Source: Parcubacteria group bacterium
GTDB taxonomy: Bacteria; Patescibacteriota; Minisyncoccia; Moranbacterales; UBA2206
Reading direction: 5' to 3'
Assembly (NCBI GenBank): GCA_041664225.1
Contig: JBAYLE010000003.1
Coordinates: forward strand, 15,608-79,607
Length of the DNA: 64,000 nt
Shown: positions 3,236 through 53,522 of the stretch, piece after piece
Layout: each line of letters opens with the position of its first letter
How positions within the stretch are numbered: the first letter of the stretch is position 1
Translations under genes and position numbers: made by a program
The notes under the pieces: generated by a model
What the model was told of the DNA's origin: nothing
Seen by the model: only the letters and a program-made list of their open reading frames with translations
The model's database searches: none

Positions 3236-3255
3236 TCTACTTTTCAATAAAAGAA

Positions 3256-3285
3256 AAATCCCGATTAATCGGGATTTTTCTTTTG
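3256..3285. terminator. Bidirectional rho-independent terminator
   Basis: Hairpin aaatcccgattaatcgggattt flanked by an A-run and a T-run, between convergent genes. Confidence 0.7.
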
Positions 3286-3315
3286 TATCTTTTGCGACCA
3301 AAAAAAGTAAGCGAG

Positions 3316-10524: not shown

Positions 10525-10677
10525 AGTTAAAATCTTATCACTTATTGCCGTATTTGCATAGATTCACACAAAAAGCGTATCCATTACAAAACAGCAAACT
10601 CGGATCTGGCTATTGATTTATTTTGAGTTTATGTTATGCTTTCTACTGTTATTCGGAAATTGAAAATTACTGCAAAT

Positions 10678-10953: not shown

Positions 10954-11052
10954 TACAAATTTTATTGAGAGAATCAGCGCAGTTTTTTCAGCTAGAGACT
11001 AAACTGTGCTATAATTAAAAAAGACAAACTCCTAAAAAATTATCAAAAAAAT

Positions 11053-11361: not shown

Positions 11362-11383
11362 ACATCCTGATATCAACAACTTA

Positions 11384-11410
11384 AAAAAACTCCCGATCGG
11401 GAGTTTTTTG
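11384..11410 (+). terminator. Rho-independent terminator
   Basis: aaactcccgatcgggagttttttg. Confidence 0.75.
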
Positions 11411-11428
11411 ATTCAGCGAAACAAGCTA

Positions 11429-12771: not shown

Positions 12772-12921
12772 TAGTATTACTTTAAAGATAAACCTTTATT
12801 TCACGCCAGAAACTTTCGGGATAGGCTCTAAATTGCCAAATATCCAATATGTCTATAGTATAATAGTAACACACGATACTAATACATAAGCCCAAGGAAG
12901 TCAAGTCTCTTGTATACTTTT

Positions 12922-14025
12922 ATGATAATTTTAGGAATTGAAACTTCATGCGACGAAACCGCTGCTTCGGTAGTCAAGGCCGGCAAAAATGTCAAAATTT
13001 TGTCAAACATCGTATCGTCTCAAGTCAAACTGCATGCTAAGTGGGGCGGCGTAGTGCCCAATCTGGCAGCCAGAGAACATTTGAAAAATATTTTACCCGT
13101 AATCGAAATAAGCCTCGAAGAAGCTTCTGTAAAAATTAAAGATATTGATCTGATTGCTGTTACCAATGGACCAGGTCTGATTCCAGCCTTGCTCATCGGC
13201 ACCAATACAGCCAAGGCGCTCGCTTATGCCTGGGAAAAACCCTTGATTGGAGTGCATCATATTGAGGGACACATCTACGCTAATTTTATCGGGGATAAAA
13301 TTAGCGCAAGTTCAAAGTTCAAAGTTCAAAGTTCAAGGTTCCCGATTTTATGTTTGGTTGTTTCCGGCGGGCACACGCAATTAGTCCTAATGAAAGATCA
13401 TTTGAAATATAAAATTATCGGACAAACCTTGGATGATGCTGCCGGTGAAGCTTTTGATAAGGTTGCACGAATTCTAGGACTCGGTTATCCTGGAGGACCG
13501 GCCATTGCCGAGGCGGCGATGAAGTCAAAAATTAAAAGTGAAAAACTCAAAGTTCAAGGTTCAGCTTTCTTCCTTCCACGGCCAATGATTAATTCAAAAA
13601 ATCTCGATTTCTCTTTTTCCGGACTGAAAACTGCCGTTCTTTACACGGTCAAAAAAAATCCAGAGATATTGAGAAATAAAAAAATGCTAATTGATTTATG
13701 TTCCGAGTTTCAGCAGGCCGTTATCGATGTTTTGATTCATAAGACCCTGGCCGCCGCTGAAAAATACAATCCCAAAATGATAATGCTGGCGGGCGGCGTT
13801 TCTGCCAATGAAGAATTGCGCGATCAATTAAGCGCTTCTTTGAAAAAACATTTTCCAAATACAAAATACCGCATCCCCGAAACTAGATACAGTCTCGACA
13901 ATGCCGCCATGATAGCCAGCGCCGGATTTTTCCGCTGGCAAAAAATGAACAAGACTGAGCGAGAGAGCACTAGTTCAAATTGGAAAATATTAGAAACGGA
14001 TGCTAATTTAAAATTAAAACAATAA
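12922..14025 (+). CDS. tsaD: tRNA N6-adenosine threonylcarbamoyltransferase TsaD (Kae1/YgjD family). Start at MIILGIE.
   Basis: GIETSCDETA, HHIEGH, VVSGGHTQL, GGVSAN motifs. Two short in-frame insertions carry the repeat tcaaagttcaaggttc. Confidence 0.85.
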   Translation: MIILGIETSCDETAASVVKAGKNVKILSNIVSSQVKLHAKWGGVVPNLAAREHLKNILPVIEISLEEASVKIKDIDLIAVTNGPGLIPALLIGTNTAKALAYAWEKPLIGVHHIEGHIYANFIGDKISASSKFKVQSSRFPILCLVVSGGHTQLVLMKDHLKYKIIGQTLDDAAGEAFDKVARILGLGYPGGPAIAEAAMKSKIKSEKLKVQGSAFFLPRPMINSKNLDFSFSGLKTAVLYTVKKNPEILRNKKMLIDLCSEFQQAVIDVLIHKTLAAAEKYNPKMIMLAGGVSANEELRDQLSASLKKHFPNTKYRIPETRYSLDNAAMIASAGFFRWQKMNKTERESTSSNWKILETDANLKLKQ

Positions 14026-14043
14026 AATCCTGGGTATTCACTA

Positions 14044-14631
14044 ATGAATAACGCGATAAAAATTAAACTGCTGCTCTTCGGCGTCATTGCCGCTTTCGGA
14101 TCACTGTTTTTTGAATTGGCCGTTTCTATTTTTTTCCCGGGGGAAACTGCGTTTTTATTTGATCAGATCACCCTCCTATTGATCTTTTTCGTAATCATTG
14201 AAGAATTAATCAAATTTTTTGTGATTTGGAAATCCGTCTCATTTTTTCAAAACGCGCGTGATTTTTTTCTCGGCGCCTGCCTGATCGGATTTGGTTTTTC
14301 TCTTACCGAGATTATTTTTGCCAGCCTCAATGTCGCTGGCGGACAGCATGCAACCTGGCTTCCGTTTTTAGGAATTTTTGTTGTCCATACTTCTACCTGT
14401 GTCATTTTGGGATACGGAATATATCTGAAAAAAAGAAGTACTATAATTATCCCCCTGGTTTCCATCCTGATTGTTTTTCTTTTGCATCTAATTTACAATA
14501 TTCTGGTCATCTACGGTACGGGTGCCTCCATCATTCTATCTTACCTTTGCATACTTTTTATTTTATCCATTGCTGTTGGAAAAAAACTGCAAAAACAGCA
14601 GGGCCTAAAAAACAATTTGCCAAAAATATAA
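14044..14631 (+). CDS. PrsW-family intramembrane metalloprotease-like membrane protein
   Basis: Multi-TM; EELIKF (EExxK), FxxTE and downstream His motifs in TM segments as in PF13367. Confidence 0.5.
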   Translation: MNNAIKIKLLLFGVIAAFGSLFFELAVSIFFPGETAFLFDQITLLLIFFVIIEELIKFFVIWKSVSFFQNARDFFLGACLIGFGFSLTEIIFASLNVAGGQHATWLPFLGIFVVHTSTCVILGYGIYLKKRSTIIIPLVSILIVFLLHLIYNILVIYGTGASIILSYLCILFILSIAVGKKLQKQQGLKNNLPKI

Positions 14632-14679
14632 ACTTAAATTATACTAAAAACAGCTAAGTCTAACTTTTTTTATAATGCT

Positions 14680-15213
14680 ATGGTTAAAGTAAAAAGGTCT
14701 TTTTTGGAAAAACTGACTGGTTCGCGCAGAATCGAGCCGGGAGAGTACGAAGAAGAAAGGAGAAGCACGCCAATTATGCCAATAACTAATATTTATGAGG
14801 AAGAAGAAACTGAACTGCTAACCACTTCTTCCCCAACAAGAAAAAATATGATAGAAGAAAACTTTTCATCCGGCGATAACAGCGAGGGACAGCTGACAAT
14901 CGACGTGTACCAGACCGACAATGACATCGTCATCAAGTCCACCATTGCCGGCGTAAAACCGGAAGATCTGGATGTCAGTATCAACAATGACATGATCACC
15001 ATCCGCGGCGAAAGAAAAAATGAAGAAAGTGTAGGAGAAGAAAACTATTACTACCAGGAATGTTACTGGGGACCATTTTCCCGTTCTGTGATCCTGCCCG
15101 TTGATGTGTTGGGAGAAAAAGCAGAAGCTTCCATGAAAAATGGTATTTTCACATTAAGATTGCCGAAAGCTGATACGACTAAAACTAAAAAAATCCAGGT
15201 GCGCGGTTTCTAA
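14680..15213 (+). CDS. Hsp20/alpha-crystallin family small heat-shock protein
   Basis: Alpha-crystallin domain TIDVYQTDNDIVIKSTIAGVKPEDLDVSINNDMITIRGER...GIFTLRLPK. Confidence 0.8.
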   Translation: MVKVKRSFLEKLTGSRRIEPGEYEEERRSTPIMPITNIYEEEETELLTTSSPTRKNMIEENFSSGDNSEGQLTIDVYQTDNDIVIKSTIAGVKPEDLDVSINNDMITIRGERKNEESVGEENYYYQECYWGPFSRSVILPVDVLGEKAEASMKNGIFTLRLPKADTTKTKKIQVRGF

Positions 15214-15226
15214 TGCGATATTTCTA

Positions 15227-15252
15227 AAAGCCCCTTCTGAGGGGCTTTTTGT
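15227..15252 (+). terminator. Rho-independent terminator
   Basis: aaaagccccttctgaggggctttttg. Confidence 0.8.
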
Positions 15253-15300
15253 ATTAAAAAATTTGTTGATTTTAAGCTTATTTTGAGTTATTCTTAGTAT

Positions 15301-16614
15301 ATGCGTAAAAACAAGGTTGAAAAAATATTCTATATTTTTGTTTTTAGCCTGCTCTATTTTGTGCCGAGCAATTTCGCTTTGGCTGAAAACATAAACTTAG
15401 GATCTTTTGACCAACAAACCGCCAATGAAAAATTTTTGAAAGACATTTCGCTTAAGGTTGACGATTCTTCCTATAATTTGTCCGCCGAGGAAATAAAGAA
15501 ATTTATCCAAGAAAGTGAAACTCTGACTTATAGCCCCAGCTACCGATCTGAAATTGAAAATACTAATTTTTGCGCCTACCAAAAATCGATTATCTGCAAT
15601 TTACTTTTTAGCGCTACCGATGCGATCCATATCCAAAAAATTTCCAGTGTTTATCTCGATGAAAGCGCTATCTCCCAGTATCTTGATGATTTTGCTCTTG
15701 AGGTCAACAAAGATCCGGAAAATGCCAAACTTCAGGCTGACGACGGTAAGGTATCAGTTTTTGCTTTGAGCCGTGACGGAATTCAATTAGACAAAGAAAA
15801 AAGCCTGCAAATCATCGATGATTATTTCAAAGGACCCAGCAAAACAAATGAGGTTTCTTTGGCCTACAAGGTAATAAAGCCGGAAATTTCTACTGATTCC
15901 ATCGAAAATCTTGGAATTACAGCGCTTATCGGCGAGGGCACTTCCAATTTCGCCGGCTCCCCTAAAAATAGAATCCACAATATCACTGTCGGAACTAAAA
16001 GATTTAATGGGGTGCTGATCAAGCCGGGTGAAGAATTTTCTTTCATAAAAGCACTCGGCCCGGTCGATGAGTCAACGGGATACCTACCTGAGTTGGTTAT
16101 AAAACAAGACAAAACCGAGCCTGATTATGGCGGCGGCATGTGCCAGGTTTCCACCACCGCTTTCCGCGCCGCCATCATGAGCGGACTCAAAATCACCGCC
16201 CGCACTCCGCATGCCTACCCGGTTTCTTATTACAATCCGCAAGGCATGGACGCAACTGTTTTTATTCCTAATCCAGACTTGAAATTCCTCAACAACACGC
16301 CGGGATATATCTTGATGCAAACAAAAATTGAAGGCACTAAATTAATTTTTGATTTTTATGGCACTTCCGACGGACGAAAAATAAATATCACCGGACCGAC
16401 AATTACTGAAAGAAATCCTGATGGTTCGATGAAGGCCACTTTTACGCAAGAAGTTTTAGACAAAGACGGCAATCAAATTTTGCATAACGTTTTTAATAGC
16501 AGCTACGACTCGCCAAGTAAATACCCCCACCCCGGCGAAGAAATCTTCAAAGAAAAGCCCAAGGATTGGTCCAAAAAGCAATGGGAAGCATACAAGAAGC
16601 TGCATAATTTGTGA
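15301..16614 (+). CDS. VanW-like domain protein (secreted)
   Basis: Signal peptide; VanW core GTSNFAGSP...GGGMCQVSTTAFRAA...PHAYPVSYY. Confidence 0.75.
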   Translation: MRKNKVEKIFYIFVFSLLYFVPSNFALAENINLGSFDQQTANEKFLKDISLKVDDSSYNLSAEEIKKFIQESETLTYSPSYRSEIENTNFCAYQKSIICNLLFSATDAIHIQKISSVYLDESAISQYLDDFALEVNKDPENAKLQADDGKVSVFALSRDGIQLDKEKSLQIIDDYFKGPSKTNEVSLAYKVIKPEISTDSIENLGITALIGEGTSNFAGSPKNRIHNITVGTKRFNGVLIKPGEEFSFIKALGPVDESTGYLPELVIKQDKTEPDYGGGMCQVSTTAFRAAIMSGLKITARTPHAYPVSYYNPQGMDATVFIPNPDLKFLNNTPGYILMQTKIEGTKLIFDFYGTSDGRKINITGPTITERNPDGSMKATFTQEVLDKDGNQILHNVFNSSYDSPSKYPHPGEEIFKEKPKDWSKKQWEAYKKLHNL

Positions 16615-16777
16615 TGAGTGATTGACTTTTAGTCTTTTTTAAAATAGAATAGATTTGTTGCCTTTCGGGCAATTTTATATTAATATGCGTAGCGCAGGAA
16701 AGGGGTCGGGAAAACGTGAGTTTTCCCGTAGTGGAAATATAAAACCGCAAGGTTTTAAGGAGGAACGAAGCGACGAC

Positions 16778-16850
16778 GCGCTGGTAGCTCAGTGGATAGA
16801 GCAGTAGCCTTCTAAGCTATTGGTCGCAGGTCCGATTCCTGCCCAGCGCA
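16778..16850 (+). tRNA. tRNA-Arg (anticodon TCT)
   Basis: Acceptor gcgctgg/ccagcgc, anticodon loop ctTCTaa. Confidence 0.8.
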
Positions 16851-16954
16851 CAGGAAAAGTGAAAAGTTCATAAAGTCTATAGAGTTCATAAAGTTGAAAT
16901 TCACTATTGCTTATTCCTTTTAACTTTAAAACTTTACAAACTTGTAACTCGATT

Positions 16955-17027
16955 GCACCCATAGCTCAGTTGGTAGAGCAGATCCCTCTTAAGGATATGG
17001 TCGTAGGTTCAAGTCCTACTGGGTGCA
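16955..17027 (+). tRNA. tRNA-Lys (anticodon CTT)
   Basis: Acceptor gcaccca/tgggtgc, anticodon loop ctCTTaa, T-arm gtaggttcaagtcctac. Confidence 0.8.
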
Positions 17028-17043
17028 CAAAAGTCTCCAGAGT

Positions 17044-17115
17044 GGCGGTCATCGTCTATCGGTAAGACATCGGTTTGTGGTACCGAGAAGCTGGGTTCAA
17101 CTCCCAGTGACCGCC
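17044..17115 (+). tRNA. tRNA-His (anticodon GTG) with the extra 5' G(-1)
   Basis: 8-bp acceptor stem including G-1 paired to discriminator C; anticodon stem tcggt/accga with loop ttGTGgt; T-arm ctgggttcaactcccag. Confidence 0.8.
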
Positions 17116-17141
17116 CCTATGTAGATTTTTACTTAAAAAAC

Positions 17142-17215
17142 GCGCCCTTAGCTCAGTGGATAGAGTGTCTGGCTTCGGACCAGAAGGTCGTAGGTTCGAA
17201 TCCTGCAGGGCGCAC
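17142..17215 (+). tRNA. tRNA-Arg (anticodon TCG)
   Basis: Acceptor gcgccct/agggcgc, anticodon loop ctTCGga. Confidence 0.75.
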
Positions 17216-27975: not shown

Positions 27976-28055
27976 TCTTTTTTGATGTTTATCTTTATTT
28001 TACTAATACAATTATACCATAAAAAAGGAAGTTGGGTAAGCGAACCCTATAGTTA

Positions 28056-28235
28056 ATCGAGCATGTGAAATATTCTATTCAAATTCAAGAGAGTGAACGT
28101 TAAAAAAGTTGCTGGTCCGCCTCGGGGCAACCAGCAACTTTTAGTGAACGAGCGCGGAATTTGTTAGAATATTTCACCTGCTCGGACTTTTCTTTGGTTG
28201 CTTTTCTTTTCCTAGAAAAGAAAAGCAAGAAGCGG
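28056..28235 (+). repeat. Copy A of a ~150-200 nt structured repeat family (conserved loops, covarying stems)
   Basis: Shares atcgagcatgt(g/a)aaatat, gcgttaagaaa, the ggtccgcctcggggcaacc loop, acttttagtgaa, aatttgttag, cctgctcggacttttcttt and the ttttcctagaaaagaaaag hairpin with copies at 53323 and 52135. Confidence 0.7.
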
Positions 28236-28298
28236 TAATTTCCAAATTCTTCGACGTTTTTGCGTGGCTTATATTAGCCAAAAATAGCAATATTATCC

Positions 28299-31942: not shown

Positions 31943-34816
31943 TCAAAGATACTTCCCCGTCCAACTCCTTTTGCATTTTTTCAATTTGTCCGGTGTGCCG
32001 GCATAAACCACTTCGCCGCCCTTGTCCCCGCCTTCCGGCCCCAAATCAACCACCCAATCGGAATTGCGGATAACATCGACATTGTGTTCGACAACTAAAA
32101 CCGAATTGCCTTTTTCCACTAGTGCGTCCAAAACTTTCAGAAGTCTTTTCACATCGTCAAAATGCAAACCGATGGTTGGTTCGTCCAGAATATATAGGGT
32201 CTTGCCTGTGGATTTACGAGCCAGTTCCGTCGCCAACTTTATCCGCTGTGCCTCACCGCCAGAAAGATTGGTGGCGCTTTGGCCCAAACGCAGATATCCT
32301 AAGCCCACGTCTTCCAGAGTTTGCAATTTTTCCACGATTAGCGCGGATTTTTTGAAAAACCGTAAGGCGTAGGACACGCTCATATCCAAAACTTCAGCGA
32401 TATTCACGCCCTGATATTCAATGTCCAAAGTTTTTTGATTGTATCTGGTTCCATTACAGGCCTCACATTTAACATACATGTCCGGCAAAAGATGCATTTC
32501 GATTTTTTTGGTGCCATCGCCCTGGCAGACTTCGCAGCGCCCGCCCTTCATGTTGAAACTAAAGCGACTCGGAGCATAGCCCCGGCTTTTGGATTCTTCC
32601 GTATTCGCAAAAATATCCCGAATCAGTGAGAAAACCCCGGTATACGTAGCTGCGTTTGAACGCGGCGTTCTGCCGATCGGCGCCTGATCGATATTGATAA
32701 CTTTGTCGACATTATCCAGCCCCCTGACTCTTTTATGCAAGCCTGGCATTGCCTTGGCGCCAAAAAAGTACTTAGATAAAACTTTAGCCAGAATATCAGA
32801 AACCAGGGTCGATTTGCCCGATCCGGAAACACCAGTCATCGCCACAAATTTACCCAGTGGAATTTCTACATCGATATTTTTCAAGTTATGTTCCTGGGCT
32901 CCTATAATTTCGATAGACTTTTTATTGCCTTTGCGGAAACTTTTTTTCTCCGCCACTTTCTTCTTGCCAGTCAGATATTCCGCCGTGGACGTTTTTGATT
33001 TTAAGAGTTTTGCGAAATCGCCCTGAAAAATGACTTGACCGCCTTCCTCACCAGCTCCGGGACCCATATCAATGATCCAGTCAGCTTGGCGGATAATGTC
33101 CGCATCATGTTCAACCACAATCATTGAATTTCCTGCGTCTTTCAAGGCCTGCATAGTATTTATCAGCTTTTCGGTGTCGCGGTTATGGAGTCCGATCGAT
33201 GGCTCGTCCAAAACATAAGTGATGCCCATCAGTTCCGATCCGATCTGAGTAGCCAAACGGATCCGCTGTGCTTCACCGCCGGAAATCGAATTAGCGCCTC
33301 TGCTCAAAGATAAGTATTCCAAGCCTACATTGCAAAGAGCATCGGCTTTAAGCGCCATATCCTTGATCAATGGTTCAATTATTTTTTTCCGTCCGGGGTT
33401 CAATTCGATTTTTTTCAACTCTTCAAAGAATCCTTTCAATTTAACCAGATCCAGATGCACGACATCGTCGATGGATTTGTCAGCCACCAGCACCGATAAA
33501 TATTCTTTTTTTAATCTTTTGCCCTCACAGGCCGGACAGATTTTTTCCAGCATATACTTTTCCATATCGCCACGCACATAATCGGAAGTCGCCTCTTCAT
33601 ATTTTCGCTTGATCATAGGCAAAACACCCTCGAAAATCATTCGCACTTCCTTGACGCCCCCCATAGCATCCCGCTGCTGGATCGTAATTTCTTTCTGTTC
33701 CGGACCGTATAAAACAATCTCCAGCGCCTCTTTGGATAATTTTTTTATCGGTACATCCAAAGAAAAATCGTGTTTCCCTGCCAAGGCCCGTAAAATATTC
33801 AGATAATTTCCTTGTCCGCCTACCCGACCGTTGGATTTGCTCCATGGCAAAATCGCGCCTTCCGCCAAAGAAAGGTTTTTATTAGGCATAACCAAGTCGG
33901 CATCGACTTCTTTGGTGATACCCAAGCCGGAACAATGCGAGCAAGCACCTTCCGGATTATTAAAGGAGAAGTGTCTCGGCGTAATTTCGTTTACTCTGGT
34001 TTGACACCCATTGCAGACAAAGTCCCTATTGTACGTCCGATCCGCCTCTCCTTCTACTGAAATAATCAAAGATCCTCCGCCAACACGCAAGGCCGTCTCG
34101 ATCGAGTCCAATATTCTCTCTGTGTCCGGACTTTTAGCTTTGACTGAGAGGCGGTCAACCACTACTTCGATCTCACTTTCGATCTTGTCGCTAGCGACCA
34201 GGCTGGCTTCCGTCACCAGCATTATCTTTCCATTGAAACGGACGCGCGCGAATCCCAGCTGAGAGATACCGCGCAAATGATCCTTGTCGGTCGTCCGCCA
34301 GCTGGCGGAGCCGCTTTTTGCGGATTCTTTCGGTTTGGCCAATACGGCTATCTGCGTGTTGTCAGGCAAAGCAAAAATCTCATCTAGTATTTCCTGGTTG
34401 GTTTTTCTGAGCATCGGCGCCCCGCATTGCGGACAGTGCGGCGCTCCGATCTTGGCGAACAAAACACGGAGGTAGTCGTAGATCTCTGTCAAGGTTCCCA
34501 CGGTTGAACGCGGGCTCCTGCTTAAGCTTTTCTGGTCAATGGAAATAGTCGGACTTAGGTTTTCAATTTTGTCCACATCCGGCTTGGCACCGACATCCAA
34601 AAACTGCCGCGCGTATGATGACATACCCTCCAGATATCGGCGGTTGCCTTCCGCGTGCACCACATCAAAAGCCAATGAAGATTTACCCGATCCGGACAGC
34701 CCGGTGATCACCACTAGTTTGTCGCGCGGGATATCAATATCGATATTTTTTAAGTTATTGACCCTCGCTCCCCGGATAATAATTTTGTCCCTTTTGCAAT
34801 AAGTACCGTTCGCCAT
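31943..34816 (-). CDS. uvrA: Excinuclease ABC subunit A (full-length class I UvrA)
   Basis: Two ABC ATPase modules ([20 protein letters not shown]), zinc-finger cysteine clusters, LSGGEAQR signatures. Confidence 0.85.
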
Positions 34817-34882: not shown

Positions 34883-36235
34883 CTAGCTAAGCAGGTTCTT
34901 TCTGCGAAGTTTTTTGTGATATGTTATCGCAAACCGATGCGCTTCATCCATAATCCGCTTGATCAAATTTTTGTCATTGATAATGTTTTTTAAATTTGAA
35001 AATTTAGGAATTGAAAATTGATTGAAAATTGAAAATTGAAAATTGAGATTTTTGCGAGACTTTCCTTTGGCAATGGTAACCATTGGCATCTCTAAATTTA
35101 ATTCCTGCAATAATCTTTCAGCCATAAAAAGGTGCCCTTTCCCTCCATCCAACAAAATTAAATCTGGTTGCGGCCAATCATTTTGAAAACGGCGCAACAA
35201 AACTTCGCGCATCATACCCACATCATCTGTGCCTTCAACTGTTTTGATTTTAAATTTACGATACTGCGACTTGTCCGGTTCATTATTTTTGAAAACTACC
35301 ATCGAACCCACCGCATGAGCACCGGAAATGTTGGAAATATCATAAGCTTCAATTCTTATTGTTTCGGATTTTTGATTTATGATTTCTAATTTCTCATCGC
35401 TCGCGATGAGCGCCACATCACGGATGTGCTTCAGCGCAAAAACTTTATTCCTAGCGTCCGCTGCTTTTTCAAATTCATTATTTTTCGCGTAATTTTTCAT
35501 TTCTGTCTCTAGTTTTTTTATTAATCCTTTTTTTCGGCCTTCCAAAATCATTCTGATTCCACGAATATTTTTCATGTAATCCGCTTTAGAAATGGCGCCG
35601 GCATACGGCCCCGGACATCTGCCAATTTGAAAATCCAAACAGCCCCTCTCTGTTTTTTGATTATTGCTATGGAATGGAAAAATTTTTCGCAAAATTTTCA
35701 GCGCAATTTCCATTTGCTTTTTGGAAGTATAAGGACCAAAGGTCTTTGCAACCCTGACCCCCCTCTCCCTTTTTAGGGAGAGGGGCTGGGGGTGAGGGGG
35801 CAGATCCGTCGCTCTCAAAATCAGTACCCTCGGAAAATCTTCCTTAGTTATAACGAAATATGAAAATGACTTATCATCTTTCCCCATCGCGTTATACTTC
35901 GGCTGGAGTTTTTTGATCAGTTGCGCTTCCAAAATCAACGCCTCCAAAACCGAATCAGTTTCTCTCACTTCGATATCCGCAATCTGATCAATTGCATACT
36001 CGATCGGCCGATCCAAATTCCGCGCCGTAGCGTGTCGAAGCTTGGTGTCTTTTGGTCGTTTTGGTCGAGAGACACCGAGCTTCTTATCCGTAAGCGGCGT
36101 AGAAAAATACGACCCGACCCGGCTCCGCAAATTAGTCGCCTTCCCCACATACAAAACATCCCCGGCTTTATCCTTGAAAATATACACGCCAGGATTTTTG
36201 GGCAGCTTTAATATCTTAATTTTTAGGCTTGACAT
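34883..36235 (-). CDS. uvrC: Excinuclease ABC subunit C, short form (450 aa), carrying several in-frame repeat insertions
   Basis: N-terminal GIY-YIG (GVYIFKDKAGDVLYVGKATNLRSR), UVR domain, C-terminal endonuclease domain (AYDISN). Confidence 0.75.
   Translation of the reverse strand: MSSLKIKILKLPKNPGVYIFKDKAGDVLYVGKATNLRSRVGSYFSTPLTDKKLGVSRPKRPKDTKLRHATARNLDRPIEYAIDQIADIEVRETDSVLEALILEAQLIKKLQPKYNAMGKDDKSFSYFVITKEDFPRVLILRATDLPPHPQPLSLKRERGVRVAKTFGPYTSKKQMEIALKILRKIFPFHSNNQKTERGCLDFQIGRCPGPYAGAISKADYMKNIRGIRMILEGRKKGLIKKLETEMKNYAKNNEFEKAADARNKVFALKHIRDVALIASDEKLEIINQKSETIRIEAYDISNISGAHAVGSMVVFKNNEPDKSQYRKFKIKTVEGTDDVGMMREVLLRRFQNDWPQPDLILLDGGKGHLFMAERLLQELNLEMPMVTIAKGKSRKNLNFQFSIFNQFSIPKFSNLKNIINDKNLIKRIMDEAHRFAITYHKKLRRKNLLS
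34985..35050. repeat. GAAAATT heptamer tandem array inside the uvrC coding frame
   Basis: ggaattgaaaattgattgaaaattgaaaattgaaaattgag is nearly identical to the reverse complement of the array at 1760-1800; translated as NLNFQFSIFNQFSIPKF. Confidence 0.7.
35745..35791. repeat. Palindromic G/C-rich mini-insertion inside uvrC (in-frame)
   Basis: ccctctccctttttagggagagggg hairpin plus ctgggggtgagggggc; locally GC-rich; encodes LPPHPQPLSLKRERG. Confidence 0.55.
36038..36083. repeat. Palindromic mini-insertion with core cttttggtcgttttggtcgaga inside uvrC (in-frame)
   Basis: gaagcttggtgtc [ttttggtcgttttggtcgaga] gacaccgagcttc; same core as the element in uvrA2 at 38890-38944. Confidence 0.65.
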
Positions 36236-36754: not shown

Positions 36755-39667
36755 TTATTTTTTCAAAACCTCCCTCAAAAACTTTCCTGTATAACTCTCT
36801 TTATGATACTTTGCCACTTCTTCCGGTTCGCCGGTGACGACCACTCGGCCTCCCTCATCCCCGCCTTCAGGGCCAAGATCGATAATCCAATCAGCGGTTT
36901 TGATGACGTCCATATTATGTTCAATGACCACCACGCTGTTGCCTGCATCCACCAGGCGATTCAGAACTCCCAACAATTTTTTGATATCATCAAAATGCAA
37001 GCCTGTCGTCGGTTCGTCCAAGATGTATAAAGTATTACCGGTCGCCCGCCGGGAAAGTTCCGTCGCGAGTTTGATTCGTTGCGCCTCCCCGCCAGAAAGC
37101 GTAGTGGCCGCCTGCCCGAGCTGGATATACCCGAGTCCCACATCTTCCAAAACAGACAGCTTGTCATTGAGGTCATGATAATTCCCAAAAAATTCGCGCG
37201 CTTCCATAACGTTCATTTCCAAAACTTCAGCGATATTTTTCCCTTTATATTTTACATGCAGAGTTTCACTATTATATCTTTTGCCATGGCAAACATCGCA
37301 AGAGATAAAAACATCCGGCATAAACTGCATCTCAATTTTGAGCAGGCCTTGCCCCTGGCAATTGTCGCATCTTCCTCCGCTGACATTAAAAGAAAACCGG
37401 CCCGGCAGATAGCCCTTAGCTTTGGCATCTTTGGTCGCGGCAAAAATTTCTCGAATCTCGGAAAACATTCCAGTGTAAGTTGCCGGATTTGACCGCGGAG
37501 TGCGCCCGATCGGCGACTGGTCGATCATAATGACTTTGTCCACATGTTGCGTCCCCACAATTTCCGCGTGTTTCCCCGGCCGTTCCAGAGAATGCATCAG
37601 TTTGCTCGACAAAGATTTATATAAAATATCTTCCACCAGCGATGATTTGCCCGAACCGGAAACGCCCGTCACCACCGTCATGACTTTGAGCGGAAATTCC
37701 ACAGTAATATTTTTCAAATTATTCTCCCGCGCTCCCCGCACCACCAGCCATTTTTTGTTTTTGACCGGCCGGCGGAATTTCGGCACCTCGATTTTCAATT
37801 CTCCGCGCAAATATTTAGCCGTGATGGATTTGGGATGACCCATCACTTCCTGCGGACTACCTTGCGCCACTATTTCCCCGCCCAATTTTCCCGCACCCGG
37901 ACCGATGTCTACCAAATGATCTGCCTCGCGCATCGTCTCTTCATCATGTTCAATCACGATTAAGGTGTTTCCGATATCGCGCAATTGCAAAAGTGTGTTC
38001 AAAAGTTTCGAATTGTCACGCGCGTGCAGACCGATCGATGGCTCATCCAAAATATACAAAACCCCCACTAATTGCGATCCGATCTGGGACGCCAATCTGA
38101 TCCTTTGGGTTTCTCCACCCGCTAAAGTGTTAGCGGAACGCGCCAAAGTCAGATAATTCAATCCGACATTGTCCAAAAAACCCAGCCGCGCCACAATTTC
38201 TTTGCAAATTTTGCCGGCAATCTGTTTCTCTCGATCATTTAATTCCAACTCTTTAAAAAATTTCAACGAATCGCTTACGCTTACAGACGAAACTTCATGA
38301 ATATTTTTCCCACCTACTGTAACTAACAAAGTTTCAGGCTTGTAGCGCATTCCATGACAGGCCGAACATGGATTTTGCGACATATATTTTTCAATCCCCT
38401 CGCGCACCGCGTCTGAATCGGTTTTAAAATATCGTTCCTGCATAAAACCAACCACGCCCCGCCAGGACATATAAAATTTCCAGTTGGTTCCGGTCTTGGC
38501 GCGAATTGTAATCGGCACTTCCTCGGCATCTTTTTCTGAGATCATATCTTCGGCATCCCGCGCACCATATAATAATATATTTACTTTTTCTTTTGGTAAA
38601 TCACGCAGTCTGACATTATCCGAAATATGAAAATATTTCGCCACCGACAAAATCACCCCGCCATAATAATTATTCCTCTTGAAATTCCACGGCGCCAATC
38701 CGCCTTCGGAAATCGTTTTGGTCATATCCGGCATCACTAAATCCGGATCAATTTCTTTTTTGGTGCCCAAGCCTTCGCAGGTCGGGCAAGCTCCGTACGG
38801 AGAGTTGAAAGAAAAAAGCCGCGGCTCCAATTCTGGAAACTCGACATCATGATCCGGACAAGCTAATTTTTGATTATAAATTATTGAATCGGAGAGGTTC
38901 GACCTCTTTTGGTCGTTTCGGTCGAGAGAGGTCGAACCTCTTTTTATAATTTTGATTTTCACTAAACCATTGGAAAGTTTCAGCGCTTTTTCCACATCTT
39001 CAAAAATACGGGAAATATTTTGATCGTTTATTCCAATCGCGTCGATCACGATATCAATCTTGTGCATCTTGTAGCGCGCCAACGGAATTTTGGTTTTGGG
39101 ATTAAGCTCATATTTTTTACCATTGACATAAGCTTTGGAAAAGCCACGTTTATACATTTCTAAAAGCAAAGTTGAATATTCGCCTTTACGTCCGCGCACC
39201 ACCGGCGACAAAATCTCGATTGTTGCCCCCTCACCAATTTCCAGAATCTTGCTGACAATTTCATCCGTGGAAAGCTTGGAAATTTCTTGCCCATCAACCG
39301 GACAATGTGGGATGCCGATTTTGGCATACAGCAAACGCAAGTAATCGTGAATTTCCGTTACAGTTCCCACTGTAGAACGCGGATTTTGCGAAGCAGATTT
39401 TTGCGAAATAGAAATGGCCGGCGAAAGCCCTTCGATATAATCGACATCCGGTTTTTCCATCTGCCCCAAAAACTGTCGGGCATAGGCCGACAAGCTTTCC
39501 AAATATCTTCTCTGTCCTTCGGCAAAAATAGTATCAAAAGCCAGAGTCGATTTCCCCGACCCGGAAATACCGGTAAAAACAATAAATTTATCCCGCGGCA
39601 ACTCGAGATCGATATTTTTCAGATTATGTTCACGCGCGCCTTTTATAATAATTTTGTTCATAAACAC
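36755..39667 (-). CDS. uvrA: Second full-length UvrA paralogue (excinuclease ABC subunit A)
   Basis: Two ABC modules ([20 protein letters not shown]), [16 protein letters not shown] signatures, zinc-finger cysteines; contains an in-frame palindromic insertion. Confidence 0.85.
38890..38944. repeat. Palindromic mini-insertion with core cttttggtcgtttcggtcgaga inside uvrA2 (in-frame)
   Basis: gagaggttcgacctc [ttttggtcgtttcggtcgaga] gaggtcgaacctc; encodes [18 protein letters not shown]. Confidence 0.65.
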
Positions 39668-42212: not shown

Positions 42213-44174
42213 TCATCCCGCCTGCAATTTCCGCAATTCTCCGATTTCATCTCTTATTATGGCGGCTTTTTCAAACTCCAGCGCCCGAGAGGCTTCCTTC
42301 ATCTCGCGCTCGCGCTGTTTGATGTAGCCTTGCAAATCTTCCAGAGATTCCAATTCGGTGAAATCGCGCGTAACTTCAGGCTTCAATTCATGATCCACAA
42401 TGGACTGGATTTTCTTTTTGATGGTGGTCGGGGTGATACGATGCTTTTTATTATGGGCCACTTGAATTTTGCGCCGGCGGTCGGTTTCACCAATCGCCCG
42501 TTTCATGGAGCCGGTAATCTGGTCAGCGTATAAAATAACTCTGCCGGAAACATTCCTGGCCGCTCGGCCGATGGTTTGAATAAGCGAAGTTTCACTCCGC
42601 AAAAATCCTTCCTTGTCCGCGTCCAGAATTGCTACCAAAGACACTTCCGGCAGATCCAATCCTTCGCGCAAAAGATTCACGCCCACCAAAACATCAAATT
42701 TGCCGCGCCGTAAATTTTCCAAAATTCGCACACGATCCAATGTTTCCACTCCGCTGTGGAGATATTCAGCTTTCACTTTTGATTCTTTTAAAAAGTCCGA
42801 GAGGTCTTCTGCCATTTTTTTGGTCAGCGTCGTCACTAAAACTCTTTCTTTTTTGGCTACTATTTTTTTAATTTCGGAAATAACATCCTTCACTTGCCCT
42901 TTGGCGGGCTTGATGGTTAGTTCCGGATCAATAAGCCCGGTCGGACGAATAATTTGCTCGGCAATTTGAGTAGAATTTTTTCTTTCGTAATCTGCCGGCG
43001 TGGCTGAAGTAAAAATCAGCTGATTAATTTTTTTCTCAAATTCACTAAATTTAAGCGGTCGATTATCAAAAGCGCTCGGCAGGCGAAAACCGTTGTCCAC
43101 CAAAGATTTTTTCCGCGAATAATCGCCGTTATACATCCCGTTTAATTGGGGTATAGTTACGTGCGATTCATCAACGACCATTAAAAAATCTTCTGGAAAA
43201 TAATCTATCAGAGTATATGGCGCCTCGCCGGGCTGTCTTCCAGTGAGAAAGCGTGAATAATTTTCGATCCCGTTGCAATAACCGATTTCGCGCATCATTT
43301 CGATGTCCTGTTTGGTGCGCCGCTCCAGCCTTTCGGCTTCCAGCAACTTATTATGATCCCGTAAATATTTCACTCTGTTTTTGGCTTCGGTTTCTATTTT
43401 TTCAAGCGCCCTTTCCATCAGCGGCTCCGGCACCACAAAATGCTTAGCCGGATAAATTAAGATTTTGTCTAGTCTTCCCAATTCATCACCAGTTAGAAAA
43501 TCGTATTCACTAATTTTAGTAATCTTATCCTGCTCAAGACTGATCCTAGTTACAATTTCCCGCGCCGGTGACATAATCTCAATCGTCGGACCCGTCACCC
43601 GGAATTTTCCGCGGCTCAAAAGATCGGTGCGCCCATAATGCATCTCCACTAATTTATTGATCAATTCGCTTCTATCAACTTTTTCTCCCTTTTTTATTTC
43701 CAAAGAAATATCGCGGTAAAATTCCGGCGAGCCCAAGCCATAGATACAGGAAACGGAAGCGACGATAATGACATCCTGACGACTCATGAGCGCAACCGTA
43801 GCCGCGTGGCGAAGACGGTCGATCTCATCATTGATCTGCGCTTCTTTTTCAATATAGGTGTCCGACGAAGCAATGTAGGCTTCCGGCTGATAGTAATCAT
43901 AATAGGAAACAAAATATTCCACCGCGTTCTTGGGAAAAAAGGTGCGAAATTCCTGCGCTAACTGCGCCGCCAAAGTTTTATTAGGCGCGATTACCAGCGT
44001 CGGCTTCTGAACTTTTTCAATCACATTAGCAATCGTAAAAGTTTTGCCAGATCCCGTCACGCCCAAAAGCGTCTGGAATTTTTGTCCAGCCTTGAGGCCC
44101 TGAACCAGCTTCTCAATCGCCTGCGGTTGATCGCCGTCCGGTTTGTATTTTGAATTGATCTTAAATTTCTGCAT
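42213..44174 (-). CDS. uvrB: Excinuclease ABC subunit B
   Basis: Helicase motif I GVTGSGKT, beta-hairpin region, DESH box, C-terminal UVR domain. Confidence 0.9.
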
Positions 44175-51351: not shown

Positions 51352-52083
51352 ATGCTCGAAAGAGACCTGGAAAAATTGGGGCTAGACGACAAAGAAGCTA
51401 AAATATATTTAGCGCTTTTAGAGTTAGGGGAAGCTAATATCCAACAAATTGCCAAAAAATCAGGAGTCAAAAGAACGACTGTTTATGACATTATTGAGTC
51501 CTTGAAAGAAAAGGGGCTTTTGAGTTCAGCGACACGGCACAAAAAAATTACCTATTCCGCCGAAGATCCGAGAACGCTGGAGGAAAAATTAGACGAAAGA
51601 AAAAATACCCTAAAAAGGATTATGCCAGAACTGCTTTCCATCGCCAATGCGATGGATAAAAAACCAAAAATAAGATTCTTTGAAGGATCAGAGGGGATAA
51701 AAGAGGTTTATAAAGATACGTTAAAATACCCCTCTAGCGAACTTTTGGCTTGGGTTTCCGATGAAGCAGTAACTGTTTTTGATAAGGATTTTTTGGAGGG
51801 ATATTACTTACCAAAAAGAATTGAAAAAAAGATATGGGTCAGAGCGATTGGCACAGAGAGCACGGAGATGAAAAACTATAAAAATTTAGATGAGAAGTCT
51901 TTACGCAAAACTAAGATCATCTCTGCCAATCAATTTCCCATCCATGTTGAAATCAATCTTTATGGAAAAAATAAAATCGCCGTCATGTCTTTTTCCGAAA
52001 AAATCGGCCTCATCGTCGAAAGTCAAAAGATTTTCACCACCCTCAAAAGCATATTCGAAATGAACTGGAATTCAATTGCCTAA
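51352..52083 (+). CDS. TrmB-family transcriptional regulator
   Basis: N-terminal wHTH LGLDDKEAKIYLALLELGEANIQQIAKKSGVKRTTVYDIIESLKEKGLL. Confidence 0.7.
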   Translation: MLERDLEKLGLDDKEAKIYLALLELGEANIQQIAKKSGVKRTTVYDIIESLKEKGLLSSATRHKKITYSAEDPRTLEEKLDERKNTLKRIMPELLSIANAMDKKPKIRFFEGSEGIKEVYKDTLKYPSSELLAWVSDEAVTVFDKDFLEGYYLPKRIEKKIWVRAIGTESTEMKNYKNLDEKSLRKTKIISANQFPIHVEINLYGKNKIAVMSFSEKIGLIVESQKIFTTLKSIFEMNWNSIA

Positions 52084-52134
52084 ATTTTAAAAATATAAAA
52101 TAATAGATCCTTCAGCCTACAAAATTTCCACAAA

Positions 52135-52284
52135 ATTCAAGCGAGCGAGCGTTAAGAAAGTTCCTTGATTCCGCCTCGGAAGCAGCCGGAACTTTTAGCT
52201 CGCAAGTGCATAATTTTGTCGGAAATTTTGTCTGGCTGAGAGTTCTTTTTGTTACTTTTTCTTGCGGAAAGAAAAAGTAAGGGG
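52135..52284 (+). repeat. Copy C of the structured repeat family (lacks the 5' arm), immediately upstream of trpS
   Basis: attcaagcgagcgagcgttaagaaa, ttccgcctcggaagcagcc loop flanked by agttcc/ggaact, cttgcggaaagaaaaagtaagg 3' end. Confidence 0.65.
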
Positions 52285-52325
52285 CTGTAATTGCCTAAAA
52301 CACTCCTTTACGCTAGAATAAATTT

Positions 52326-53306: not shown

Positions 53307-53322
53307 AAATTTTTAAACTACC

Positions 53323-53522
53323 ATCGAGCATGTAAAATATGCTACTACAAATTGAAGCTTTTGAGCGTTAAGAAATTTTTAGGTCCGCCTCGGGGCAACC
53401 AAAAATTTTAGTGAAAAAGCTGAAAATTTGTTAGCATGTTTTGCCTGCTCGGACTTTTCTTTGTAACTTTCTTTTCCTAGAAAAGAAAGTTAGATCAGTA
53501 CTTGCGGAAAGAAAAAGTAAGG
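53323..53522 (+). repeat. Copy B of the structured repeat family, between trpS and the GT39 gene; its 3' end supplies the AAGGA RBS
   Basis: atcgagcatgtaaaatat, gcgttaagaaa, ggtccgcctcggggcaacc, cctgctcggacttttcttt, ttttcctagaaaagaaag, cttgcggaaagaaaaagtaagg. Confidence 0.7.

What the first reader, a model, noticed from the sequence alone, without database searches (positions are those of the whole stretch)
28056..28235. Three-copy structured repeat family with conserved loops and compensatory stem changes: candidate novel ncRNA or cis-regulatory leader
Three ~150-200 nt elements lie on the same strand at 28056-28235, 52135-52284 and 53323-53522, and they share several exact blocks. The central hairpin keeps its loop sequence (ggtccgcctcggggcaacc, or ttccgcctcggaagcagcc in copy C). 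Its stem differs between copies but remains base-paired: ttgctgg/ccagcaa in A, tttttagg/ccaaaaa in B, agttcc/ggaact in C. The 3' hairpin ttttcctagaaaagaaa changes in the same way (gcttttc../..gaaaagc versus actttc../..gaaagt). Covarying stems with conserved loops is the pattern expected of a functional RNA rather than a recently copied MITE. Copies C and B end with the identical 22-mer cttgcggaaagaaaaagtaagg and sit immediately upstream of trpS and the GT39 gene. B supplies the AAGGA Shine-Dalgarno 8 nt before the ATG. Copy A lies between two minus-strand genes, so a mobile origin is not excluded.
Basis: seen in the sequence. Interest (0 to 1): 0.85.

Follow-up and report, generated by a model that had tools for sequence, protein, structure and literature searches.

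The report
Structured hairpin repeat family in Moranbacteria
The three look-alike stretches are real copies of a previously uncatalogued ~180-200-base repeat found only in Moranbacteria (tiny "candidate phyla radiation" bacteria); each folds into a long hairpin plus a short one, and the family behaves like a small mobile element rather than a gene-specific regulatory leader.

Summary
Copies A, C and B each consist of a 127-130-nt rod-like hairpin, a U-rich linker and a 27-29-nt A/U-rich hairpin, all on the + strand.

Pattern scans, nhmmer and a covariance model recovered about 30 copies. All come from Candidatus Moranbacteria/Parcubacteria MAGs and metagenome contigs. On 23 distinct copies, 89% of cells pair, against 35-50% in slid controls, and 48 of 65 pairs show compensatory double changes. 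G-U exceeds A-C 64 to 25 on the + strand. There are also conserved tandem G·A pairs and an almost invariant 5'-GUUAA/A-3' asymmetric loop. No Rfam 15 family matches.

It is not a trpS or GT39 leader:
- Occupancy of the same intergenic sites differs among genomes with 80-90% identical trpS.
- Orientation relative to neighbouring genes is roughly half and half.
- Different subtypes occupy orthologous sites, and near-identical subtypes sit at unrelated sites.
- Head-to-head pairs and truncated copies occur.
- Orientation does track the replication-linked GC3 skew: 13 of 14 loci.

Best reading (confidence about 0.45): a non-autonomous, structure-dependent mobile repeat with REPIN/IS200-like logic. 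It would double as a terminator and 5'-UTR module. The main rival is a multi-copy small-RNA gene family.

The parts
28048..28057 (+). Copy A: A/T-rich box (TATAGTTAAT) just 5' of the rod
   Evidence: An A-rich box with consensus T.T.AAAAAT..T sits at a fixed distance (-13 to -1) before the rod in 23 copies. Sequence read.
28058..28184 (+). Copy A: 127-nt rod-like hairpin (helices P1-P5, GUUAA/A loop, tandem G·A in GUGAAC/GUGAAC, apical CG-CCU-CG)
   Evidence: Fold -77.9 kcal/mol, z = -8.0. Covariance-model hit of 150.9 bits. Pair counts.
28185..28199 (+). Copy A: U-rich linker (GACTTTTCTTTGGTT)
   Evidence: Conserved T-rich tract after the rod in all copies (alignment).
28200..28226 (+). Copy A: small A/U-rich hairpin (GCTTTTCTTTTC cta GAAAAGAAAAGC)
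   Evidence: Helix 7: 12 pairs, 100% paired, 7 with changes on both sides.
28235..28240 (+). Copy A: GTAATT 3'-end motif
   Evidence: GTAA[T/C] lies 4-6 nt after the small hairpin in about 9 of 24 copies, against about 0.4 expected by my own estimate (flanks listed).
52086..52110 (+). Copy C: A/T-rich box region (TTTTAAAAATATAAAATAATAGATCCT)
   Evidence: Together with the upstream TTGCCT it forms a promoter-like site at 52076-52104.
52111..52240 (+). Copy C: 130-nt rod-like hairpin (apical type TTCCG-CCT-CGGAA GCAG)
   Evidence: Fold z = -7.3. Covariance-model hit of 169.4 bits.
52252..52280 (+). Copy C: small hairpin (TTACTTTTTCTT gcgga AAGAAAAAGTAA), followed by GTAATT at 52287-52292
52074..52084 (+). 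Left copy of the 11-bp direct repeat AATTGCCTAAA flanking copy C. The right copy is at 52289-52299.
   Evidence: Longest flank match; 0 of 200 shuffles reach it. This is the only copy of 17 tested with a significant flanking repeat. The right copy holds the -35 of the trpS promoter-like site.
52291..52319 (+). Promoter-like site TTGCCT-17-TAGAAT between copy C and the trpS ATG (52326). Not part of the element, but it places C outside a trpS leader.
   Evidence: Homologous sequence follows the element in L027 and L031.
53309..53324 (+). Copy B: A/T-rich box (AATTTTTAAACTACCAT)
53325..53451 (+). Copy B: 127-nt rod-like hairpin
   Evidence: Fold z = -6.9. Covariance-model hit of 169.9 bits. An orthologous copy sits downstream of trpS in L024, 84% identical over the 5' half.
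53465..53491 (+). Copy B: small hairpin (AACTTTCTTTTC cta GAAAAGAAAGTT)
53501..53522 (+). Copy B: extra, partial C-type small hairpin (the 22-mer). Its AAGGA lies 6 nt before the ATG of the PMT/GT39 gene (53530).
   Evidence: Similar leftover half-hairpins follow L014a and L020b.
3252..3312 (+). Solo 3' module: an ordinary GC-rich terminator hairpin, a T tract, a degenerate small hairpin and GTAAG, with no rod
   Evidence: Weak covariance-model and nhmmer hits. Sequence read.

Best explanation
This is a family of non-autonomous, polar, hairpin-structured intergenic repeats specific to Candidatus Moranbacteria.

Layout of one unit: an A-rich box, a ~127-nt rod hairpin, a U-rich tract, a short A/U hairpin, and often GTAATT.

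Shown:
- The family is multi-copy, and occupancy of given sites is variable.
- Copies occur in both orientations relative to neighbouring genes.
- Copies recombine and nest.
- The fold of one strand is kept by compensatory change.

Inferred:
- Copies spread by a mechanism that recognises the folded single strand. The closest analogues are REP/REPIN-RAYT, the ends of IS200/IS605 elements and integron attC sites. This would explain the missing target-site duplications, the conserved left flank and the orientation tied to the replication strand.
- Once inserted, the unit is transcribed with its neighbours. The rod flanked by A and U tracts would then act as a two-way terminator or RNA-processing/stabilising hairpin.
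- In sense orientation, the small hairpin and its purine-rich tail (AAGGA and similar) would supply the ribosome-binding region of the next gene.
For: Family and host range:
- 5 true hits in the genome collection, all in Moranbacteria/Parcubacteria MAGs, and 10 true hits in metagenomes.
- Further copies found by nhmmer and the covariance model.

Variable occupancy at orthologous sites:
- Upstream of trpS: filled in the window, L027 and L031; empty in L024, L025, L032 and L035.
- Downstream of trpS: filled in the window and L024, inverted in L032, empty elsewhere.
- rbfA|nrnA is filled in L023 and empty in L014. infB|rbfA is the reverse.

Subtypes:
- Different subtypes occupy orthologous sites: cysS|dus in L007 versus L019, and DUF4349|leuS in L011 versus L018.
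- Subtypes 87-92% identical occupy unrelated sites in different genomes.

Arrangement and flanks:
- Four head-to-head pairs lie 19-64 nt apart, and two truncated 5' halves abut full copies.
- There is no target-site duplication in 16 of 17 copies.
- The left-flank box is conserved at a fixed distance.

Strand and structure:
- Solitary copies have their folding strand on the GC3 C-rich strand in 13 of 14 loci.
- Orientation relative to genes is about 7 co-oriented, 6 antisense and 3 convergent.
- 48 of 65 pairs carry double changes, and G-U outnumbers A-C 64 to 25.
- Compensatory change is documented as common in mobile REPIN hairpins (PMC3116915).

Terminator and UTR role:
- The rod starts 19-28 nt after the stop codons of trpS, the TrmB-like gene, infB and cysS.
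- The 3' end of the element lies 10-12 nt before the start codons of dus, nrnA and rbfA.
- Ordinary terminator hairpins sit in the linker of L021a and L032b, and in place of the rod at window 3252-3312.
Against: - No transposase or other partner protein was found. No Y1/HUH gene appears in about 430 kb of held sequence, which includes duplicate loci. That query was recalled from memory, and the partner could lie anywhere in the genome.
- No excision or insertion event between near-identical genomes was captured. The empty and filled sites compared are about 15-20% diverged, so exact ends are undefined.
- Copy number looks low: 3 in 73 kb here, and none in 21 kb of two relatives. Copies within one genome are only 63-77% alike, which is unlike a recently active MITE.
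- The conserved sequence is central (GUUAA loop, P3) and not terminal as in REPINs or IS ends.
- Under the usual convention (leading strand G-rich), the folding strand is on the leading-strand template. This is the opposite of IS608-type elements.
- Conserved tandem G·A pairs and G-U pairs are equally what a functional RNA would show.
- Termination, processing and RBS roles are untested. The simple terminator scan did not call the rods.
Confidence: 0.45

Rival explanations
1. A multi-copy family of independently transcribed small non-coding RNA genes. Each copy would have its own -10-like box (TAAAAAT), and the RNA would be the rod plus the small hairpin. It would act in trans, for example by binding a protein at the GUUAA loop. 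Paralogues would be reshuffled by gene conversion.
For: - Strong covariation, G-U over A-C on one strand in 17 of 23 copies, conserved tandem G·A pairs and a near-invariant asymmetric loop.
- The A-rich box lies at a fixed distance 5' of the rod.
- Copy C has a full promoter-like site, TTGCCT-17-AATAAT, ending about 7 nt before the rod.
- The polar architecture scores 115-181 bits forward against 20-38 bits reverse.
- Some sites are kept across genomes: cysS|dus, downstream of trpS, and DUF4349|leuS.
- Modular recombinants are consistent with gene conversion.
Against: - There is no conserved -35, and the tool called no promoter for A or B.
- No U tract follows the small hairpin, so the RNA would have no clear 3' end.
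- In the one usable empty site, the A-rich box is already present without the element. It may therefore be a target rather than a promoter.
- Occupancy is patchy among close relatives, and two relatives have none in 21 kb.
- Head-to-head pairs share a spacer of about 20 nt, too short for two ordinary promoters.
- Under the usual skew convention, all copies would be transcribed head-on to replication.
Confidence: 0.27
2. A cis-regulatory leader (riboswitch, T-box-like or protein-binding) that controls the downstream gene.
For: - Copies C and B sit 45 nt and 38 nt (hairpin end to ATG) upstream of trpS and PMT.
- Several copies abut start codons with a purine-rich tail.
- Aminoacyl-tRNA synthetase genes are frequent neighbours: trpS, cysS, leuS and a class II (Lys-type) gene.
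Against: - About half of the copies are antisense to both neighbours.
- Near-identical subtypes precede unrelated genes, and some lie downstream of genes only.
- The upstream trpS copy is absent or inverted in relatives.
- A promoter-like site lies between C and trpS.
- Neither T-box nor any other leader family in Rfam matches, even at E <= 10.
Confidence: 0.04
3. A replication-linked signal that acts as single-stranded DNA. It would be comparable to the single-strand origins (sso) of rolling-circle plasmids or to primosome assembly sites, and would be fixed in orientation relative to fork movement rather than being mobile.
For: - Orientation follows the GC3 skew in 13 of 14 loci and ignores gene direction.
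- It is a 125-nt orientation-specific rod with conserved unpaired motifs and tolerated G·T pairs.
- From my own knowledge, ssoA-type origins are ~150-200-nt strand-specific hairpins with a conserved loop motif TAGCGT/A. The apical regions of L027c and L032b contain TAGCGA/TAGCGG.
Against: - Occupancy is patchy, and relatives lack copies.
- Head-to-head pairs defeat a fixed polarity.
- Under the usual convention, the folding strand is on the leading-strand template, which is rarely single-stranded.
- The TAGCG resemblance is present in only 2 of about 30 copies.
Confidence: 0.07

Closest known systems
REP/REPIN elements mobilised by RAYT transposases (Pseudomonas, E. coli)
   Same: - Both are extragenic and non-coding.
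- The whole unit folds as a long hairpin in ssDNA or RNA.
- Compensatory changes on the two sides are common (PMC3116915).
- There are no target duplications.
- Both occur as singlets, inverted pairs and clusters, and are largely lineage-specific.
   Different: - REPINs are about 70-110 nt and symmetric, with the conserved 16-mers at the two ends and a variable middle.
- This element is about 180-215 nt and polar (rod plus a second hairpin), with its conserved motifs in the middle of the rod and variable ends.
- Copy number here is tens at most, not hundreds.
- No RAYT gene was found.
Correia (CREE/NEMIS) elements of Neisseria and ERIC elements of enterobacteria (from my own knowledge)
   Same: - Both are 100-150-nt palindromic intergenic repeats that are co-transcribed with neighbours.
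- Those elements are reported to supply promoters and terminators and to be RNase III substrates.
- Insertion lies close to gene starts and ends.
   Different: - Correia elements have defined terminal inverted repeats and a TA duplication, with hundreds of about 90% identical copies.
- Here there is no duplication, sequence divergence is deep with preserved pairing, and one strand is preferred.
IS200/IS605-family ends and their miniature derivatives (PATEs)
   Same: - Both are strand-specific and depend on hairpins.
- There is no target duplication.
- A conserved short sequence flanks one end.
- Orientation is biased with respect to replication.
   Different: - IS200/IS605 hairpins are short (about 20 nt) and sit at both ends.
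- The polarity of the replication bias appears opposite under the usual skew convention.
- No TnpA gene was detected.
Integron attC sites
   Same: - Structure is conserved while sequence varies.
- One strand is functional.
- Sizes reach about 140 nt.
- From my own knowledge, chromosomal arrays are oriented relative to replication.
   Different: - attC sites conserve the base of the hairpin (RYYYAAC/GTTRRRY). This element conserves an internal loop.
- Here there are no cassette arrays and no integrase, and the neighbours are syntenic housekeeping genes.
Rod-shaped bacterial RNAs (6S RNA, small SRP RNA)
   Same: - Both are ~130-180-nt irregular hairpins with conserved internal loops.
- Type-2 copies contain GGAAGCAGCC, and the family has a 5-nt/1-nt asymmetric loop. 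Both recall SRP domain IV (resemblance from my own knowledge).
   Different: - There is no large central bubble as in 6S RNA.
- No Rfam SRP or 6S match appears even at E <= 10.
- This family is multi-copy, patchy in occupancy and found in both orientations.

Membership tests
Any Rfam 15 RNA family (including T-box, SRP, 6S, riboswitches) | Covariance-model score at or near the family's gathering threshold | tested here: not met
   At gathering thresholds the window gives only 8 tRNAs. E-value scans of A, C and B give only chance-level hits of 12-18 bits against thresholds of 39-110.
T-box leader | Lies in the 5' leader of an aminoacyl-tRNA synthetase or amino-acid gene, co-oriented with it, with a specifier loop and T-box sequence | tested here: not met
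   About half of the copies are antisense to their neighbours, and the same subtype lies next to unrelated genes. There is no RF00230 hit.
Classical MITE | Target-site duplication flanking each copy | tested here: not met
   Only copy C has a significant flanking repeat (11 bp). The other 16 tested do not exceed shuffles.
Classical MITE | Terminal inverted repeats shared with an autonomous IS element | tested here: inconclusive
   The whole rod is an inverted repeat, but its ends (P1/P2) are the most variable part. No autonomous partner was seen in the held sequence.
Classical MITE / mobile repeat in general | Presence/absence polymorphism at orthologous sites, and several dispersed copies per genome | tested here: met
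   Filled and empty sites were compared. There are 3 copies in the window and at least 6 in MAG MFD04408: L007 and L010, plus L013 and three in L027.
REPIN-RAYT | Unit made of two inverted REPs that form a hairpin with compensatory changes | tested here: met
   Rod hairpin with 48 of 65 covarying pairs. This is an analogy in form only.
REPIN-RAYT | Conserved REP 16-mers at both ends, and a cognate single-copy RAYT gene flanked by REPs | tested here: not met
   The ends are variable and the conserved motifs are internal. tblastn with IS608 and IS200 TnpA sequences recalled from memory found nothing in about 430 kb. Whole genomes could not be searched.
IS200/IS605-type single-strand transposition | Orientation biased with respect to the replication strand | tested here: met
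   The folding strand is on the GC3 C-rich strand in 13 of 14 loci. The polarity is opposite to that reported for IS608 if the leading strand is G-rich (my own knowledge).
Integron attC | Conserved RYYYAAC...GTTRRRY at the base of the hairpin; cassette arrays next to an intI gene | tested here: not met
   The base of the rod is variable. GTTAARA is internal and faces a single A. Neighbours are syntenic housekeeping genes.
Intrinsic (bidirectional) terminator | Stable hairpin immediately followed by a U tract, with an A tract upstream for the opposite direction | tested here: inconclusive
   An A-rich box lies 4-7 nt before the rod and a T-rich tract starts 3-7 nt after it in all copies. The consensus scan did not call them, because the stems exceed its design and the tract is offset. 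Function is not testable here.
Independent sRNA gene | Own promoter and defined 3' end; a discrete transcript | not testable with these tools
   Only a -10-like box at a fixed distance. A full promoter-like site exists for copy C only. No expression data are available.

The most novel reading that the evidence does not exclude
The element is a new class of structured nucleic-acid replicator in CPR bacteria. In this reading a ~180-nt RNA or ssDNA unit, with a fold under strong selection, copies itself between intergenic sites (a bacterial 'SINE-like' or RAYT-independent mobile hairpin). It would be locked in orientation to the replication fork. Alternatively, it is a chromosomal single-strand-origin-like signal used by these minimal genomes.
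Probability: 0.15. Interest if true: 0.85.

Novelty: new variant of a known kind. Interest (0 to 1): 0.6.

Why it matters
CPR/Patescibacteria genomes are tiny and tightly packed, and almost nothing is known about their non-coding or mobile DNA. This family has four notable properties:
- Its covariation support (48 of 65 pairs) is unusually strong for an uncatalogued element.
- It shows that strong covariation alone does not separate a functional RNA from a hairpin-dependent mobile repeat.
- Its orientation tracks the replication-linked skew rather than transcription. That points to a single-strand stage and could mark replication direction in fragmented MAGs.
- It repeatedly sits exactly between stop codons and start codons of housekeeping genes, so it probably shapes termination and translation initiation in these organisms.

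It also breaks short-read contigs at the hairpin apex, which matters for assembling these genomes.

Tried and rejected
- Rfam at gathering and at permissive thresholds gave nothing.
- A viral-contig scan with a two-block pattern gave only chance matches in coding DNA. blastn against phage genomes gave no match.
- A search for target-site duplications found one case in 17.
- K-turn readings of the GC-GAA/GA-GC module and of the P4 tandem G·A were rejected by hand. The bulge geometry is wrong: the asymmetry is 1 nt, not 3.
- The SRP-like resemblance (GGAAGCAGCC, 5/1 asymmetric loop) is not backed by any SRP model score.
- An IS608-style 'TTAC' target on the minus strand (GTAATT on the plus strand) is present in only about a third of copies and is not seen at the one usable empty site. 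It is kept only as a lead.
- tblastn for Y1 transposases in the held loci gave nothing.
- tRNA gene orientation was tried as a proxy for replication direction. It was inconsistent with the skew across loci.
- Alternative pairing between the U-rich linker and the 3' arm of the small hairpin (a switch) gives only about 6 weak A-U pairs by eye and was not pursued.
- Literature searches for CPR/Parcubacteria repeats or RNA motifs found nothing relevant.
- One look-up of the first ORF of the window failed because the protein is not on record.

Full report
**1. Observation**

The repeat finder recovers them as families D6-D8 and D16. The apical 10-mer TCCGCCTCGG occurs exactly three times. The 22-mer shared by C and B occurs exactly twice, with none expected by chance.

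Folding shows that the central hairpin is only the tip of a rod of 127-130 nt:
- A: 28058-28184
- C: 52111-52240
- B: 53325-53451

Fold z-scores are -8.0, -7.3 and -6.9. After the rod come a U-rich linker and a 27-29-nt A/U-rich hairpin. In B, the 22-mer is an additional, partial C-type small hairpin placed just before the PMT/GT39 start codon.

**2. The family**

The window is part of JGI metagenome contig Ga0376277_0001041, which is 124 kb long.

A three-block pattern was scanned against the collections:
- In the species-representative genome collection it found five true copies. All are in Candidatus Moranbacteria/Parcubacteria MAGs, and three come from one MAG.
- In metagenome contigs it found ten true copies.
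- In viral contigs, an earlier two-block version of the pattern found only chance matches.

nhmmer and a covariance model (R1) then found copies that lack the exact pattern. About 30 copies are known in all. No further copy lies in the window or in 8.7 kb beyond its end.

Forward-strand hits score 115-181 bits. The reverse strand of the same loci scores 20-38 bits, so the element is polar.

**3. Anatomy**

All copies share one architecture, in this order:
- an A-rich box, consensus T.T.AAAAAT..T, at -13 to -1;
- P1, 6 bp;
- a small U/CY loop, which in one subgroup carries an extra GC-GAA/GA-GC module;
- P2, 11-13 bp and fully variable in sequence;
- P3, AAAUUC/GAAUUU, conserved in sequence;
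- P4, 6-7 bp with tandem G·A pairs (for example GUGAAC opposite GUGAAC in copy A);
- a near-invariant asymmetric loop, 5'-GUUAA on one side and a single A on the other;
- P5, 8-12 bp;
- an apical domain with at least six variants, the commonest closing on CG-CCU-CG;
- a U-rich linker;
- a small hairpin, ACUUUYYUU/AARRAAAGU;
- often GTAATT, 4-6 nt further on.

**4. Covariation and strand**

The analysis used the model-based alignment of 23 distinct copies.

| Measure | Observed | Control |
|---|---|---|
| Cells forming standard pairs | 89.1% | 34.6-50.5% with partners slid by 1-3 columns; 72.3% in shuffles |
| Pairs with changes on both sides | 48 of 65 | 31.8 mean in shuffles |
| Covariation score | 0.463 | 0.168 in shuffles (0 of 500 reach it); 0.05-0.12 slid |
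| G-U/U-G versus A-C/C-A cells | 64 versus 25 | binomial p = 4e-5, cells not independent |

- Every helix takes part in the covariation, including the small hairpin (12 pairs, 100% paired, 7 with double changes).
- Within-subfamily compensations also exist, for example UUUCC/GGAAA to UUUAC/GUAAA in L016.
- The alignment is fitted to the model, which inflates these numbers somewhat. Independent single-sequence folds nevertheless give the same architecture.
- G-U exceeds A-C in 17 of 23 copies and is lower in one.
- The + strand folds better than its complement in 16 of 17 copies, with mean energies of -68.9 and -62.1 kcal/mol.
- 93 A·G/G·A cells mark conserved purine-purine pairs.

A mutational bias that makes a strand C-rich would create A·C mismatches on that strand, not G·T. 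The G-U excess on the C-rich strand (see section 6) is therefore best read as selection on the fold of the + strand. That strand could be RNA or single-stranded DNA.

**5. Context**

Neighbouring genes are ordinary housekeeping genes (Pfam tables; Pfam scan).
- Copy A lies between a 327-aa gene and a histidine-kinase/type IV pilus operon, antisense to both.
- Copy C lies between a TrmB-like gene and trpS.
- Copy B lies between trpS and a PMT-family glycosyltransferase.

Across all loci, about 7 copies are co-oriented with both neighbours, 6 are antisense and 3 sit between convergent genes.

Occupancy of the trpS region in eight related genomes (80-90% TrpRS identity):

| Locus | Upstream of trpS | Downstream of trpS |
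|---|---|---|
| Window | one + copy | one + copy |
| L024 (90%) | none | orthologous + copy |
| L027 | head-to-head pair | none |
| L031/L033 | one + copy after RNase J | none |
| L032 | none | one inverted, diverged copy |
| L025, L035 | none in 21 kb | none in 21 kb |

- The copy downstream of trpS in L024 is orthologous to B. It is 84% identical over its 5' half, against 80% for trpS DNA.
- rbfA|nrnA is filled in L023 and empty in L014. infB|rbfA is filled in L014 and empty in L023.
- Orthologous sites carry different subtypes. Subtypes 87-92% identical sit at unrelated sites in different genomes, and outer and apical modules are recombined.
- Four head-to-head pairs share short AT-rich palindromic spacers. 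Two truncated 5' halves abut full copies.
- Only copy C has a flanking direct repeat, the 11-bp AATTGCCTAAA. Its right copy is the -35 of a promoter-like site, TTGCCT-17-TAGAAT, that ends 6 nt before the trpS ATG. That site is conserved after the element in L027 and L031. Copy C is therefore upstream of the probable trpS promoter and not inside a leader.

**6. Orientation relative to replication skew**

GC skew at third codon positions has the same sign for genes on either strand within a locus. It therefore reflects a strand property and not transcription.

The folding strand of solitary copies lies on the C-rich strand in 13 loci: the window, L007, L009, L010, L011, L014, L015, L017, L019, L022, L023, L031 and (weakly) L032. 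The exception is one copy in L027. Counting orthologous sites once gives about 12 to 1, a two-sided binomial p of about 0.003.

The loci are short, and the direction of replication is not known independently. tRNA orientation did not settle it.

**7. Interpretation**

The gene-specific leader idea fails on orientation, occupancy and the promoter position. Two readings remain.

I favour (0.45) a non-autonomous mobile or duplicative repeat whose propagation or persistence depends on the folded single strand. This fits:
- the patchy and shifting occupancy;
- the nesting and pairing of copies;
- the missing target duplications;
- the conserved left flank;
- the replication-linked orientation.

Compensatory change is expected for such elements and is documented for REPINs (PMC3116915).

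Its position argues that it also serves as operon punctuation when transcribed: a terminator or processing hairpin, plus a portable ribosome-binding region. The rod starts 19-28 nt after stop codons. The 3' tail ends 10-12 nt before start codons. The rod is flanked by A and U tracts. Ordinary terminators sit in the linker in L021a and L032b, and one replaces the rod at window 3252-3312. These functional steps are inferred and have not been shown.

The main rival (0.27) is a family of independently transcribed small RNA genes homogenised by gene conversion. The structural evidence suits it equally well, but it lacks a convincing promoter, a 3' end and stable synteny. A replication-linked ssDNA signal (0.07) and a cis-regulatory leader (0.04) are minor alternatives.

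**8. Novelty and limits**

Nothing like this element is in Rfam 15, and the literature searched had nothing relevant.

In kind it belongs with the structured intergenic repeats of bacteria (REP/REPIN, Correia, ERIC). It differs from them in four ways:
- size;
- its polar two-hairpin layout;
- internal rather than terminal conservation;
- the depth of its covariation.

The limits are as follows:
- All copies were first found with patterns or models derived from the window, so the breadth of the family is underestimated.
- No whole genome could be scanned.
- No expression data were available.
- No partner protein is known.
- The exact ends are undefined.

Noticed in passing
window 52291-52328: The promoter-like site TTGCCT-17-TAGAAT ends 6 nt before the trpS ATG, which suggests a leaderless or nearly leaderless trpS mRNA. 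The same -35 hexamer with 17-nt spacing recurs at 52076-52104 in front of copy C.
   Followed up: partly
window 3252-3312: An ordinary GC-rich terminator (ATCCCGATTAATCGGGAT plus a T tract) is followed by a degenerate copy of the small-hairpin module and GTAAG, with no rod. The 3' module may therefore exist on its own.
   Followed up: partly
L002 (ends at 1143) and L024 (ends at 5674): Two Logan short-read contigs stop exactly at the apex of the rod hairpin (model position about 73). The element seems to break de Bruijn assemblies, so copies are probably under-represented at contig ends.
   Followed up: no
window 31943-34816 and 36755-39667 (- strand), with 34883-36235 between: Two paralogous UvrA-like genes (957 and about 970 aa) flank uvrC. 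They account for repeat families D1 and D3. uvrB lies nearby at 42213-44174.
   Followed up: no
window, whole; tRNAs at 2695-17215: GC skew is negative on the + strand along the whole window. GC3 skew is negative for genes of both orientations (-0.17 and -0.10). Yet all 8 tRNA genes and the S6-SSB-S18-EFP genes are on the + strand. Either these genes lie on the lagging strand or the skew convention is unusual here.
   Followed up: partly
window 13308-13576: Two blocks of the short tandem repeat AAGTTCAAAGTTC..., about 220 nt apart (family D4), lie inside the span of the TsaD-family ORF 12910-14025.
   Followed up: no
L021 7345-7365 and L032 about 11060-11110 (- strand): In two copies, a GC-rich terminator-type hairpin with a T tract is inserted precisely in the linker between the rod and the small hairpin.
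   Followed up: partly
L030 1-6361 (source contig beyond the window end): A giant ORF of more than 3193 aa with RCC1/WD40-like and fibronectin-III repeats lies next to ftsK, just past the window.
   Followed up: no
L018 1688-1738; L021 7206-7214; L020 792-798; L027 9744-9750: Head-to-head element pairs share a short AT-rich, nearly palindromic spacer (for example GTAATTTTTTAAAAATCCTT). In L018 the spacer holds an ordinary bidirectional terminator.
   Followed up: partly
L025 16972-17365: A tmRNA gene lies after smpB in a relative that has no copy of the element in 21 kb. Bro-N and AAA_14/DUF4143 genes nearby hint at a mobile or prophage remnant.
   Followed up: no
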